Positions 35,784-36,805 of a DNA stretch of 64,000 nucleotides are shown here, piece by piece. This stretch comes from Shigella phage Sf21. The stretch lies in the sequence record MF327007; one strand, 5' to 3'. The notes below the pieces were generated by a model. The model saw only the letters and a list, made by a program, of their open reading frames with translations, was not told the DNA's origin and searched no databases. Made by a program: the position numbers and the translations under genes. Every line of letters starts with the position of its first letter. Position 1 is the first letter of the stretch.

Positions 35784-35859
35784 TGGTCGAGGCAGTAGGG
35801 ATCGAACCTACGACCCAGGACTTAGAAGGTCCTTGCTCTTCCTTCTGAGCTATGCCCCG
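35784..35859 (-). tRNA. tRNA-Arg (anticodon UCU)
   Basis: Cloverleaf folded by hand from the reverse complement: acceptor CGGGGCA/TGCCTCG, anticodon loop CTTCTAA, T-arm GTAGG-TTCGATC-CCTAC, encoded CCA. Confidence 0.85.
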
Positions 35860-35863
35860 TAAT

Positions 35864-35939
35864 TGGGGTGACCGATGGGAGTCGAACCCATGACTACGAG
35901 AATCACAATCTCGAGTTCTACCAACTGAACTACGGCCAC
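35864..35939 (-). tRNA. tRNA-His (anticodon GUG)
   Basis: Acceptor GTGGCCG/CGGTCAC, anticodon loop TTGTGAT, T-arm ATGGG-TTCGACT-CCCAT, encoded CCA. Confidence 0.75.
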
Positions 35940-36033
35940 ATTAATACCTACTCCAACAATCAAGATGTCTTCACACGAAATTAAGAGAAGAGTGATCAGT
36001 TCAACCCCTATAATCGCGTCAAGTAGATATTAA

Positions 36034-36049
36034 TGTGACAGTTGTCACA
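36034..36049. promoter_or_regulatory. CRP-site-like palindrome TGTGA-N6-TCACA inside the tRNA array
   Basis: TGTGACAGTTGTCACA read directly; perfect half-sites with 6-bp spacer in the 114-nt gap between tRNA-Asn and tRNA-His. Confidence 0.3.
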
Positions 36050-36053
36050 AATT

Positions 36054-36129
36054 TGGCGGACGTGATAGGATTCGAACCTATAACCAATCGCTTAACAGGC
36101 GATCGCTCTGCCATTGAGCTACACATCCA
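36054..36129 (-). tRNA. tRNA-Asn (anticodon GUU)
   Basis: Acceptor GGATGTG/CACGTCC, anticodon loop CTGTTAA, T-arm ATAGG-TTCGAAT-CCTAT, encoded CCA. Confidence 0.75.
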
Positions 36130-36132
36130 AAT

Positions 36133-36219
36133 TGGTGGGGAGTGGTGGAGTCGAACCACCCGAGTCGCAATGACAATGAATTTACAGTCCACACCGCTAC
36201 CTCTACGGGATAACTCCCC
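36133..36219 (-). tRNA. tRNA-Tyr (anticodon GUA), long variable arm
   Basis: Acceptor GGGGAGT/ACTCCCC, anticodon loop CTGTAAA, T-arm GGTGG-TTCGACT-CCACC, 87 nt, encoded CCA. Confidence 0.7.
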
Positions 36220-36232
36220 CTAATTCTTAATT

Positions 36233-36307
36233 TGGTGGCCCTGGGTGGAATTGAACCACCATCTGGCGATTATGAGTCGCTTGCTTGAACCTTCCAGCTA
36301 CAGGGCC
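36233..36307 (-). tRNA. tRNA-Ile/Met type (anticodon CAU)
   Basis: Acceptor GGCCCTG/CAGGGCC, anticodon loop CTCATAA, T-arm GGTGG-TTCAATT-CCACC, encoded CCA. Confidence 0.75.
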
Positions 36308-36308
36308 T

Positions 36309-36384
36309 TGGTGCTGATTGACGGAATCGAACCGCCGACCTTCTCATTACAAGTGAGTTGCTCTACCTACTGAGCTAAATCAGC
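36309..36384 (-). tRNA. tRNA-Thr (anticodon UGU)
   Basis: GCTGATTTAGCTCAGTAGG...CTTGTAA...GGTTCGATTCC...AATCAGCACCA. Confidence 0.88.
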
Positions 36385-36389
36385 AAAAC

Positions 36390-36479
36390 TGGCGGAGGCG
36401 ATAGGATTTGAACCTATGAGTCGCCGGAGCGACTGCCGGTTTTCAAGACCGGTGCATTAAACCACTCTGCCACGCCTCC
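36390..36479 (-). tRNA. tRNA-Ser (anticodon UGA), long variable arm
   Basis: Acceptor GGAGGCG/CGCCTCC, anticodon loop CTTGAAA, 90 nt. Confidence 0.85.
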
Positions 36480-36481
36480 AG

Positions 36482-36555
36482 TCTCCGCGGCAGGATTTGA
36501 ACCTACGACATTCTGCTCCCAAAGCAGACGCTCTACCAAACTGAGCTACACGGAG
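36482..36555 (-). tRNA. tRNA-Pro (anticodon UGG), CCA not encoded
   Basis: Acceptor CTCCGTG/CGCGGAG, anticodon loop TTTGGGA, T-arm GTAGG-TTCAAAT-CCTGC; 3' end followed by CT not CCA. Confidence 0.85.
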
Positions 36556-36565
36556 TAAATTAAAT

Positions 36566-36639
36566 TGGAGCGGATAATGAGAATCGAACTCACATCATCA
36601 GATTGGAAGTCTGAGGTAATACCATTATACGATATCCGC
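36566..36639 (-). tRNA. tRNA-Gly (anticodon UCC)
   Basis: GCGGATATCGTATAATGG...CTTCCAA...GTGAGTTCGATTCTCATTATCCGCTCCA. Confidence 0.88.
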
Positions 36640-36644
36640 AAATT

Positions 36645-36731
36645 TGGTGCGAGAAGTGGGACTCGAACCCACAAGGAAATCATTCCGCAGCATTTTAAGT
36701 GCTGTGCCTTTACCAATTTGACCATTCTCGC
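36645..36731 (-). tRNA. tRNA-Leu (anticodon UAA), long variable arm
   Basis: Acceptor GCGAGAA/TTCTCGC, anticodon loop CTTAAAA, 87 nt, encoded CCA. Confidence 0.88.
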
Positions 36732-36732
36732 G

Positions 36733-36805
36733 CTGGGAATAAAGGACTCGAACCTTTGCATCTAGCAGTCAAAGTGCTATGCCTTACCAACTTGGCTAAT
36801 TCCCA
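36733..36805 (-). tRNA. tRNA-Gln (anticodon UUG), CCA not encoded
   Basis: TGGGAATTAGCCAAGTTGGTAAGGC...CTTTGAC...AAAGGTTCGAGTCCTTTATTCCCAG. Confidence 0.85.

What the first reader, a model, noticed from the sequence alone, without database searches (positions are those of the whole stretch)
35784..36805. tRNA array with 11 genes, including His, Asn and Tyr
Hand-folding the minus strand gives 11 tightly packed tRNAs in transcription order Gln(UUG), Leu(UAA), Gly(UCC), Pro(UGG), Ser(UGA), Thr(UGU), Ile/Met-type(CAU), Tyr(GUA), Asn(GUU), His(GUG), Arg(UCU). As I recall, the T4 set is only Gln, Leu, Gly, Pro, Ser, Thr, Ile and Arg. Here Tyr, Asn and His sit where T4 has an insertion-prone gap. 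Pro and Gln lack an encoded CCA while the others encode it. Extra tRNAs suggest adaptation to codon demand or compensation for host tRNA-targeting defences.
Basis: partly seen in the sequence, partly recalled or inferred. Interest (0 to 1): 0.55.

Follow-up and report, generated by a model that had tools for sequence, protein, structure and literature searches.

The report
Known 11-tRNA cluster of T4-like phage
The 11 tRNA genes are real, but this is a common, already annotated variant of the T-even phage tRNA cluster (T4 itself has a homing-endonuclease gene where Tyr, Asn and His sit here); the only unexpected part is the histidine tRNA, which lacks the usual extra 5' G and is preceded by a conserved structured leader RNA.

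Summary
ARAGORN finds exactly 11 minus-strand tRNA genes at 35784-36805, in the stated order and with the stated anticodons. Only Gln and Pro lack an encoded CCA. T4 has 8 tRNAs, with segB between its CAU tRNA and Arg.

The array is not new. The window is 99.8% identical to Escherichia phage 107. Phage wV7 annotates the same 11 genes, and 185 phage records carry the Tyr-Asn-spacer-His-Arg block. It is the segB-free T2/RB3-type allele plus a His module. Its tRNA-Asn is identical to T2's, which holds the mapped preferred SegB cleavage site.

Function:
- The core tRNAs read the codons most enriched in the phage (AGA, AUA, ACA, UCA, GGA and UUA rank 1-8 of 61).
- Asn and Tyr are used 1.65x and 1.56x more in the phage than in E. 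coli.
- tRNA-Tyr is 87/87 identical to the T6 tRNA-Tyr shown to counter Septu.
- His is not explained by codon demand (0.71x).

tRNA-His is the residual surprise. It has T, not G, at -1 in every T4-like copy examined. It always follows a covarying 14-bp stem that encloses variable inserts, much like T5 RNAIII followed by tRNA-His.

Verdict: already known and of low interest, apart from the unexplained His module.

Novelty: the arrangement is not unusual. The same 11 genes are annotated in wV7, phage 107 and many other records.

The parts
36732..36805 (-). tRNA-Gln(UUG); no encoded CCA; identical to T4 apart from a one-base difference in where the gene end is called
   Evidence: ARAGORN; Rfam 66 bits; T4 comparison
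36645..36731 (-). tRNA-Leu(UAA), CCA encoded, 87/87 identical to T4
36566..36639 (-). tRNA-Gly(UCC), CCA encoded, 74/74 identical to T4
36481..36555 (-). tRNA-Pro(UGG), no encoded CCA, 62/75 identical to T4
36390..36479 (-). tRNA-Ser(UGA); body identical to T4, but CCA is encoded here where T4 has TAA
36309..36384 (-). tRNA-Thr(UGU), CCA encoded, 73/76 identical to T4
36233..36307 (-). CAU-anticodon tRNA of the RB9/T2 allele (only 47/77 identical to T4 tRNA-Ile). Most likely an Ile2 (AUA-reading, lysidine-dependent) tRNA rather than Met
   Evidence: Closest to E. coli ileX (58/76, against 51/81 for metT), with C4:G69 and C5:G68 and an ileX-like anticodon arm. AUA is 5.6x enriched in the phage and AUG 0.88x
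36133..36219 (-). tRNA-Tyr(GUA), class II with a long variable arm and a weak D stem; 87/87 identical to T6 tRNA-Tyr
   Evidence: below the Rfam tRNA threshold; anti-Septu role of the identical T6 gene in PMC13096335
36054..36128 (-). tRNA-Asn(GUU), identical to the T2, RB9 and wV7 gene. This gene holds the preferred SegB cleavage site mapped in T2L
   Evidence: PMC2330249
35940..36053 (-). 114-nt structured leader between Asn and His. It has a small hairpin (36049-36034) and a 14-bp closing stem (5' arm 36034-36021, 3' arm 35953-35940, ending at position -1 of His). The stem encloses a 67-nt two-hairpin insert (36020-35954)
   Evidence: Fold -32.7 kcal/mol, z = -4.36. Stem conserved with covariation in 10 distinct versions: 98.6% of cells paired, 4 pairs changed on both sides. 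Specific to the spacer before His. No Rfam hit
35864..35939 (-). tRNA-His(GUG) with C73 and CCA but T at -1, so no encoded G-1; also has a G4:U69 wobble pair
35784..35859 (-). tRNA-Arg(UCU) of the RB9/T2 allele (50/80 identical to T4 tRNA-Arg), C1:G72
35415..35765 (-). 116-aa ORF of unknown function (phrog_3355) between tRNA-Arg and rnaD; absent from T4, present in T2 and wV7
35301..35415 (-). rnaD (species 2 stable RNA), 99% identical to T4
   Evidence: T4 annotation
35156..35294 (-). rnaC (species 1 stable RNA), 98.6% identical to T4
   Evidence: T4 annotation
35082..35105 (-). terminator-like hairpin followed by a T run, directly after rnaC; probable end of the tRNA/stable-RNA transcription unit

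Best explanation
This is the tRNA operon of a Tequatrovirus (T4-like coliphage) in its segB-free T2/RB3/wV7-type form, with an added leader+tRNA-His module. The eleven genes lie head to tail on one strand, mostly 1-13 nt apart. By analogy with T4 (inferred, not shown here) they are transcribed as polycistronic precursors together with the downstream stable RNAs rnaD and rnaC. Host enzymes would then process them: RNase P at the 5' ends, 3' trimming, and CCA addition for Gln and Pro.

The tRNAs have two roles. First, they supply decoding capacity that the AT-rich phage needs and the host provides poorly. The U34-type tRNAs read NNA codons, the CAU tRNA probably reads AUA as an Ile2 tRNA, and Asn and Tyr serve amino acids the phage uses far more than the host does. 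Second, they replace host tRNAs destroyed by tRNA-cleaving defence systems: Tyr against Septu and retron-Eco7, and Thr and Asn against PARIS.

Which tRNAs a given phage carries is largely set by recombination and by homing of the SegB endonuclease, whose preferred target lies in the tRNA-Asn gene. T4's shorter set is the invaded version of this locus. The role of tRNA-His is not explained by codon demand and remains open.
For: Identity and synteny: the region is 99.8% identical to phage 107. In all, 255 records cover at least 80% of the array and 185 cover the Tyr-to-Arg block. The same 11 genes are annotated in phage 107 and wV7. Flanking T4 genes trna.2, trna.3, trna.4, e.8 and e.6, plus rnaC and rnaD, are present.

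Alleles: the CAU and Arg tRNAs are of the RB9/T2 type and Asn is identical to T2's. No segB sequence is found in the window.

Intact genes: all 11 form cloverleaves. His shows compensatory changes in all four stems between genera.

Codon demand: AGA, AUA, ACA, UCA, GGA and UUA rank 1, 2, 3, 4, 6 and 8 of 61 codons by phage/host ratio. Asn is at 1.65x and Tyr at 1.56x.

Counter-defence: tRNA-Tyr is 87/87 identical to T6 tRNA-Tyr, which rescues infection from Septu (PMC13096335). PARIS cleaves Lys, Thr(UGU) and Asn(GUU), and phage tRNAs rescue (PMC12409363).

Homing: SegB cleaves preferentially within T2L tRNA-Asn and converts that block to the T4 form (PMC2330249).
Against: Nothing about expression, processing, charging or phenotype was measured for this phage; the functional statements rest on close relatives and on codon statistics. 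Septu also cleaves the T6 tRNA-Tyr, so protection there needed extra gene copies (PMC13096335). His fits neither role well: its codons are under-used (0.71x) and it lacks the G-1 element that E. coli HisRS normally needs (the HisRS requirement is established knowledge). The E. coli codon sample is only 34 genes from one chromosomal region.
Confidence: 0.85

Rival explanations
1. Pure codon supplementation: all eleven tRNAs, including the three absent from T4, exist only to speed translation of AT-rich phage genes.
For: Cognate codons of the core tRNAs are the most phage-enriched. Asn and Tyr are the second and third most over-used amino acids.
Against: His is under-used at 0.71x. T4 grows well without Tyr, Asn or His, and the tRNA region is described as non-essential (PMC2330249). 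The identical Tyr gene has a demonstrated anti-defence phenotype (PMC13096335).
Confidence: 0.3
2. Primarily counter-defence: Tyr, Asn and His are kept as spare parts or decoys against host nucleases that cleave these tRNAs.
For: The Tyr gene is identical to the anti-Septu T6 tRNA (PMC13096335). Asn is a PARIS target and His gives minor AriB cleavage products (PMC12409363). The phage Asn anticodon arm reads UAAGCG where the E. coli AriB site is UAAUC|C (sequence compared with PMC12409363). All three have G34-U35 anticodons, the queuosine family targeted by colicin E5 (my own knowledge, not tested).
Against: Wild-type T6 with a single Tyr copy is still restricted by Septu, and its tRNA is also cleaved (PMC13096335). 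No system is known to me whose main target is tRNA-His. Nothing was tested for this phage.
Confidence: 0.35
3. Neutral or selfish mosaic: the content of the block reflects recombination, horizontal transfer and endonuclease homing rather than selection on the individual tRNAs.
For: At least six arrangements exist among close relatives. The leader+His module is shared at about 88% identity with Klebsiella Jiaodavirus phages, and the Tyr gene at 95.6% with rV5-like phages. SegB-driven conversion is documented (PMC2330249).
Against: The genes are intact, and structure-preserving compensatory changes are seen across genera. Asn is identical across T2, RB9, wV7 and this window.
Confidence: 0.15
4. 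tRNA-His is not an ordinary translational tRNA. Lacking G-1 and tied to a structured leader, it may be a poorly charged decoy or regulatory RNA, or it may need the leader for an unusual 5' maturation.
For: T is at -1 in all 13 distinct T4-like copies, in 9 of 9 array-embedded metagenomic copies and in T5. By contrast G is at -1 in E. coli hisR and in 76 of 79 other viral tRNA-His genes. The His-specific leader stem covaries. There is no codon demand for His.
Against: The anticodon GUG, C73, CCA and all stems are conserved as expected of a working tRNA. U at -1 is also the generally favoured RNase P leader base (my own knowledge). A note in the T5 record says its tRNA-His becomes an effective amber suppressor when the anticodon is replaced, so it is charged by some synthetase.
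Confidence: 0.2

Closest known systems
Phage T4 tRNA operon (NC_000866: Gln-Leu-Gly-Pro-Ser-Thr-Ile, segB, Arg, rnaD, rnaC)
   Same: Same genomic position, between trna.2-4/ipI and e.8/e.6. Same strand and order for the first six tRNAs (Gln, Leu and Gly identical, Ser body identical, Thr 96%, Pro 83%). rnaD and rnaC are 98-99% identical.
   Different: No segB. The CAU and Arg tRNAs are different alleles (61-63% identical). Tyr, Asn, the leader and His are added. Ser and the CAU tRNA encode CCA here but not in T4. An extra 116-aa ORF separates Arg from rnaD.
T2L/RB1/RB3 segB-free tRNA region (Brok-Volchanskaya et al. 2008, PMC2330249), also seen in the T2 and RB9 genomes
   Same: The order CAU tRNA, Tyr, Asn, Arg with the same alleles. 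Asn is identical. The 116-aa ORF after Arg and the 171-aa ORF before Gln are present as in T2.
   Different: T2 lacks Thr and His. RB9 lacks His and its leader, so Asn is followed by Arg after 4 nt.
11-tRNA arrays of Escherichia phages wV7 (HM997020), 107 (OQ599309), RB18, Sf22 and many others
   Same: The same eleven genes in the same order, at 97.9-99.8% identity, and already annotated.
   Different: Only point differences (2 mismatches against phage 107, 20 against wV7).
T6 tRNA-rich region and its tRNA-Tyr as an anti-Septu factor (Chihara et al. 2026, PMC13096335)
   Same: The tRNA-Tyr gene is 87/87 identical and lies at the same locus.
   Different: T6 has segB next to Tyr, which drives the protective amplification, and it lacks Pro, Ser, Asn and His. 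This window has no segB.
Phage T5 RNAIII followed by tRNA-His (NC_005859)
   Same: tRNA-His with T at -1 and C73. It is immediately preceded by an RNA of about 106 nt whose two ends form a 12-bp closing stem around internal hairpins.
   Different: No detectable sequence similarity in the leader. T5 is an unrelated family (Demerecviridae). T5 RNAIII is annotated as a stable RNA, whereas the leader here has not been observed as an RNA.

Membership tests
Tequatrovirus (T-even) tRNA operon | Located between the trna.2-4/ipI genes and the e.8/e.6 genes | tested here: met
   T4 trna.2, trna.3, trna.4, e.8 and e.6 map to either side at 71-97% identity
Tequatrovirus (T-even) tRNA operon | Core tRNAs Gln-Leu-Gly-Pro-Ser-Thr in this order on one strand with short spacers | tested here: met
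Tequatrovirus (T-even) tRNA operon | Stable RNAs rnaD and rnaC downstream of tRNA-Arg | tested here: met
   99% and 98.6% identical to T4 at 35301-35415 and 35156-35294
Tequatrovirus (T-even) tRNA operon | Co-transcription and processing by host RNase P, 3' trimming enzymes and CCA-adding enzyme | not testable with these tools
   Would need RNA data from infected cells
segB-free T2L/RB3-type allele | No segB gene between the CAU tRNA and tRNA-Arg | tested here: met
   T4 segB gives no blastn hit in the window; there is no ORF of that size in the array
segB-free T2L/RB3-type allele | CAU tRNA, Tyr, Asn and Arg of the T2/RB9 sequence type | tested here: met
segB-free T2L/RB3-type allele | Cleaved by SegB within tRNA-Asn and converted in co-infection with T4 | not testable with these tools
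   Inferred only from identity of the Asn gene with T2 (PMC2330249)
Anti-defence phage tRNAs | Sequence identity to a tRNA with a demonstrated rescue phenotype | tested here: met
   Tyr is 87/87 identical to T6 tRNA-Tyr (PMC13096335). Not met for Asn or His: no tested homologue was compared
Anti-defence phage tRNAs | Rescue of infection on hosts carrying a tRNA-cleaving system | not testable with these tools
   Requires plaque assays
Canonical bacterial-type tRNA-His | Genome-encoded G at -1 pairing with C73 | tested here: not met
   -1 is T here and in all T4-like copies, while E. coli hisR has G
Canonical bacterial-type tRNA-His | GUG anticodon, C73, CCA and a standard cloverleaf | tested here: met
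tRNA-Ile2 (CAU, lysidine-dependent AUA reader) | C4:G69 and C5:G68 acceptor pairs and an ileX-like anticodon arm (TilS determinants, from my own knowledge) | tested here: met
   the lysidine modification and charging themselves are not testable here

The most novel reading that the evidence does not exclude
The leader+tRNA-His module may be a distinct, mobile RNA unit in large virulent enterobacterial phages. It consists of a tRNA-His that has dispensed with the near-universal G-1 identity nucleotide, always coupled to a 5' leader. The ends of that leader form a conserved 14-bp helix abutting position -1, and its loop carries interchangeable small structured RNAs. T5 shows the same design with RNAIII followed by tRNA-His. 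The leader could govern an unusual 5' maturation or the charging of this tRNA, or it could serve as a platform for small stable RNAs of unknown function, for example anti-defence RNAs.
Probability: 0.25. Interest if true: 0.55.

Novelty: already known. Interest (0 to 1): 0.2.

Why it matters
As described, the array adds nothing new. It is a frequent allele of a locus studied since the 1970s and is annotated in hundreds of genomes. Its value is as context: T4, the textbook reference, carries a reduced, endonuclease-invaded version of the T-even tRNA cluster. The genes T4 lacks include one (Tyr) now known to counter a bacterial defence.

The His module is the only part worth a follow-up. [quoted passage not shown] How is this tRNA matured and charged, or is it used for something other than decoding? 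The covarying leader that always accompanies it adds to the question. Ordinary tRNA-seq and charging assays could answer it.

Tried and rejected
- Promoter in the Asn-His spacer: the consensus scan finds no minus-strand sigma-70-like site there. Overall counts do not exceed shuffled controls (6 found, 7.4 expected). I saw no T4 middle or late promoter motif by eye.
- Known RNA family in the spacer: no Rfam match even at E-value up to 10.
- Degenerate tRNA in the spacer: ARAGORN calls nothing there.
- RegB-type GGAG site in the 3' arm of the leader stem: not conserved among copies.
- The leader as a repeated element: it has no second copy in the window.
- Function of the flanking ORFs (116, 157, 171, 99 and 132 aa): only PHROG families of unknown function, and no Pfam hit.
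- Literature on phage tRNA-His lacking G-1, or on T5 RNAIII: two full-text searches found nothing relevant. The older T5 literature is probably outside the searchable library.
- 'G-1 is generally absent from phage tRNA-His': rejected, because 76 of 79 other viral tRNA-His genes have G at -1.
- 'The CAU tRNA is the T4 tRNA-Ile': rejected, because it is only 47/77 identical, although it is probably also an Ile2-type tRNA.
- Failed calls with no bearing on the result: (a file-name error and search terms that were too short).
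Full report

Yes. ARAGORN on the whole 64-kb window reports exactly eleven tRNA genes, all on the minus strand, between 35784 and 36805. In transcription order they are Gln(UUG), Leu(UAA), Gly(UCC), Pro(UGG), Ser(UGA), Thr(UGU), a CAU tRNA, Tyr(GUA), Asn(GUU), His(GUG) and Arg(UCU). All eleven draw as standard cloverleaves.

Rfam's general tRNA model scores ten of them at 59-74 bits against a threshold of 29. Tyr is the exception. It reaches only 30.9 bits, on the related tRNA-Sec model, because its D stem has a C-C mismatch and a G-U pair.

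Reading the 3' ends directly confirms the CCA claim: only Gln (followed by CGC) and Pro (followed by CTG) lack an encoded CCA.

**2. What genome is this, and is the array unusual?**

The region is 99.8% identical to Escherichia phage 107, a Tequatrovirus. In the phage collection, 964 records match the region and 255 cover at least 80% of it. The Tyr-Asn-spacer-His-Arg block alone is covered to at least 80% by 185 records. For comparison, 126 records cover T4's Ile-segB-Arg block.

The same eleven genes in the same order are annotated in phage 107 and in wV7, accession HM997020. The window differs from wV7 at 20 of 1022 positions. The arrangement is therefore already on record and common.

**3. 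Comparison with T4 and other T-even phages**

T4 has Gln-Leu-Gly-Pro-Ser-Thr-Ile, then the homing endonuclease gene segB, then Arg, rnaD and rnaC. The difference is larger than an insertion, however:
- **Same as T4:** Gln, Leu and Gly are identical, and the Ser body is identical.
- **CCA differs:** T4's Ser ends in TAA, whereas this one encodes CCA. T4's Ile also lacks CCA.
- **Diverged:** Thr is 73/76 identical and Pro 62/75.
- **Different alleles:** the CAU tRNA shares only its first 12 nt with T4 tRNA-Ile (47/77 overall), and tRNA-Arg is a different sequence (50/80).
- **Displaced, not lost:** rnaD (35301-35415) and rnaC (35156-35294) are 99% and 98.6% identical to T4. They lie beyond an extra 116-aa ORF and are followed by a terminator-like hairpin.

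Close relatives carry at least five other versions of the locus:

| Phage | Arrangement after the core genes | tRNAs |
|---|---|---|
| RB9 | CAU-Tyr-Asn-Arg | 10 |
| T2 | the same block, without Thr | 9 |
| PST | CAU-Tyr-segB-Arg | 9 |
| T6 | the PST block, without Pro and Ser | 7 |
| sutha | Tyr-Asn-leader, then a third Arg allele | 10 |

The window's CAU and Arg tRNAs are the RB9/T2 alleles. Its Asn gene is identical to that of T2, RB9 and wV7.

Brok-Volchanskaya et al. (PMC2330249; read) showed three things. T2L, RB1 and RB3 lack segB. SegB cleaves preferentially inside the T2L tRNA-Asn gene. In T4 x T2L crosses the roughly 1250-bp T2L block (Met, Tyr, Asn, Arg and two ORFs) is almost completely replaced by the T4 version.

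The window is therefore the uninvaded, recipient allele. Tyr, Asn and His also occur in the tRNA arrays of other T4-like genera (Jiaodavirus and Kanagawavirus). T4's eight-gene set thus looks like the reduced state rather than the baseline. That last step is inference.

**4. How it probably works**

By analogy with T4, the genes are co-transcribed and cut out by host RNase P and 3' processing enzymes, with CCA added to Gln and Pro. This is established knowledge for T4 and was not tested here.

*Codon demand.* I compared 73 non-overlapping window ORFs (17,206 codons) with 34 annotated E. coli K-12 genes (12,479 codons).
- Cognate codons of the core tRNAs are the most phage-enriched of all 61 codons: AGA 11.4x (rank 1), AUA 5.6x (2), ACA 4.5x (3), UCA 4.2x (4), GGA 3.9x (6) and UUA 3.1x (8).
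- Asn and Tyr are the second and third most over-used amino acids (1.65x and 1.56x).
- His is under-used (0.71x).

*The CAU tRNA.* It is closest to real E. coli ileX (58/76 identical, against 51/81 for metT). It shares C4:G69 and C5:G68 and has an almost identical anticodon arm. Together with the AUA enrichment (AUG is 0.88x), this makes it a probable Ile2 tRNA, even though most records label it tRNA-Met.

*Counter-defence.*
- The window's tRNA-Tyr is 87/87 identical to T6 tRNA-Tyr. Chihara et al. 2026 (PMC13096335) showed that Septu cleaves tRNA-Tyr in the variable arm. They also showed that extra T6 tRNA-Tyr rescues infection, that deleting the tRNA-rich region sensitises T6, and that T4, which lacks this gene, cannot escape.
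- PARIS/AriB cleaves tRNA-Lys(UUU) and Thr(UGU), and to a lesser degree Asn(GUU). Minor cleavage products come from His(GUG). T5 versions of these tRNAs rescue infection (PMC12409363).
- The phage Asn reads U36-A-A-G-C-G41 where the E. coli AriB site is U36-A-A-U-C|C41. That would fit resistance, but it is untested.

**5. The odd part: tRNA-His and its leader**

*No encoded G-1.* The His gene begins at G+1, and the base before it is T. E. coli hisR has the expected G at -1. All 13 distinct T4-like copies I collected have T at -1, while -2 and -3 vary. These copies come from the window, Klebsiella and Enterobacter phages and IMG/VR contigs. All nine copies that lie within tRNA arrays on metagenome contigs also have T at -1.

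The gene itself is under structural selection. The Enterobacter phage copy has compensatory changes in all four stems.

This is not a general property of phage tRNA-His. Among viral contigs carrying host-like tRNA-His genes, 76 of 79 have G at -1, including 33 of 36 that sit in tRNA arrays. T5, an unrelated phage, also has T at -1.

*A conserved leader.* The 114-nt spacer before His folds at -32.7 kcal/mol, with z = -4.36 against shuffled sequences. Its core is a 14-bp stem whose 3' arm ends exactly at -1.
- Across ten distinct versions, 98.6% of base-pair cells are standard pairs and four pairs show changes on both sides. With the partner strand slid by 1-3 columns, only 38-53% of cells pair.
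- The stem encloses either a 2-4-nt loop or 66-79-nt inserts belonging to at least four unrelated sequence families.
- Among about 25 other inter-tRNA spacers of 20-260 nt in the same loci, only one has a closing stem longer than 9 bp.
- In T5, the annotated 106-nt stable RNA RNAIII lies immediately 5' of tRNA-His and also folds with a 12-bp terminal stem.
- Nothing in Rfam matches the leader.

I do not know what the leader does. Candidates are a processing or maturation device for a G-1-less tRNA-His, a carrier for small stable RNAs, or a recombination scar that happens to be maintained as a helix.

Caveats: the stem arms were anchored on a sequence motif, the sample is small and its members are related, and no RNA data exist.

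**6. Verdict**

I rate the interest of the finding as low. The most novel reading the evidence leaves open concerns the leader+tRNA-His module only.

Noticed in passing
window 35864-36053 (minus strand); also L004, L005, L009-L020, L145-L173, and T5 in L022: tRNA-His has T instead of the near-universal encoded G at -1. It is always preceded by a covarying 14-bp stem that encloses hypervariable inserts. T5 shows the same layout with RNAIII followed by tRNA-His. His codons are not enriched in the phage.
   Followed up: partly
window 36233-36307 (minus strand): The CAU tRNA, labelled tRNA-Met in most GenBank records, resembles E. coli ileX more than metT. It carries C4:G69 and C5:G68, so it is probably an AUA-reading Ile2 tRNA. 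It is a different allele from T4 tRNA-Ile (47/77 identical).
   Followed up: partly
window 34510-35115: A 157-aa ORF (34558-35031, phrog_2280, unknown function) is inserted relative to T4 between rnaC and e.8. It is flanked by two copies of the rnaC terminator hairpin, at 35105-35082 and at about 34550-34527.
   Followed up: partly
window ~34350-34385, ~19440-19470, ~18000-18030 (minus strand): Repeated intergenic elements carry the T4 early-promoter signature GTTTACA, about 17 nt, then TACTATAC. They share 76-80% identity over 60-96 nt.
   Followed up: no
window 36892-37407 and 35415-35765 (minus strand): Two ORFs of unknown function (171 aa, phrog_2290; 116 aa, phrog_3355) flank the array. 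Both are absent from T4. Both are present in T2, and the 116-aa one is also in wV7. T4 gene e.7 is missing from the window.
   Followed up: partly
window 36133-36219: The tRNA-Tyr gene is about 95.6% identical to tRNA-Tyr of unrelated rV5-like phages (FV3, rV5_ev158) and 81-86% identical to those of T5-like and Felixounavirus phages. This suggests exchange of tRNA genes between phage families.
   Followed up: no
window 35864-36219; L004: Tyr, Asn and His are three of the four tRNAs with G34-U35 anticodons, the queuosine family that colicin E5 targets (my own knowledge). Jiaodavirus arrays carry all four, including Asp. Whether this grouping is meaningful was not tested.
   Followed up: no
L007 (Escherichia phage sutha) 1969-2097: The His leader is retained at about 97% identity, but tRNA-His itself is missing. 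After the leader there are only about 12 nt, starting with GTG, and then a third tRNA-Arg allele. This looks like a deletion or replacement of His that left the leader behind.
   Followed up: no
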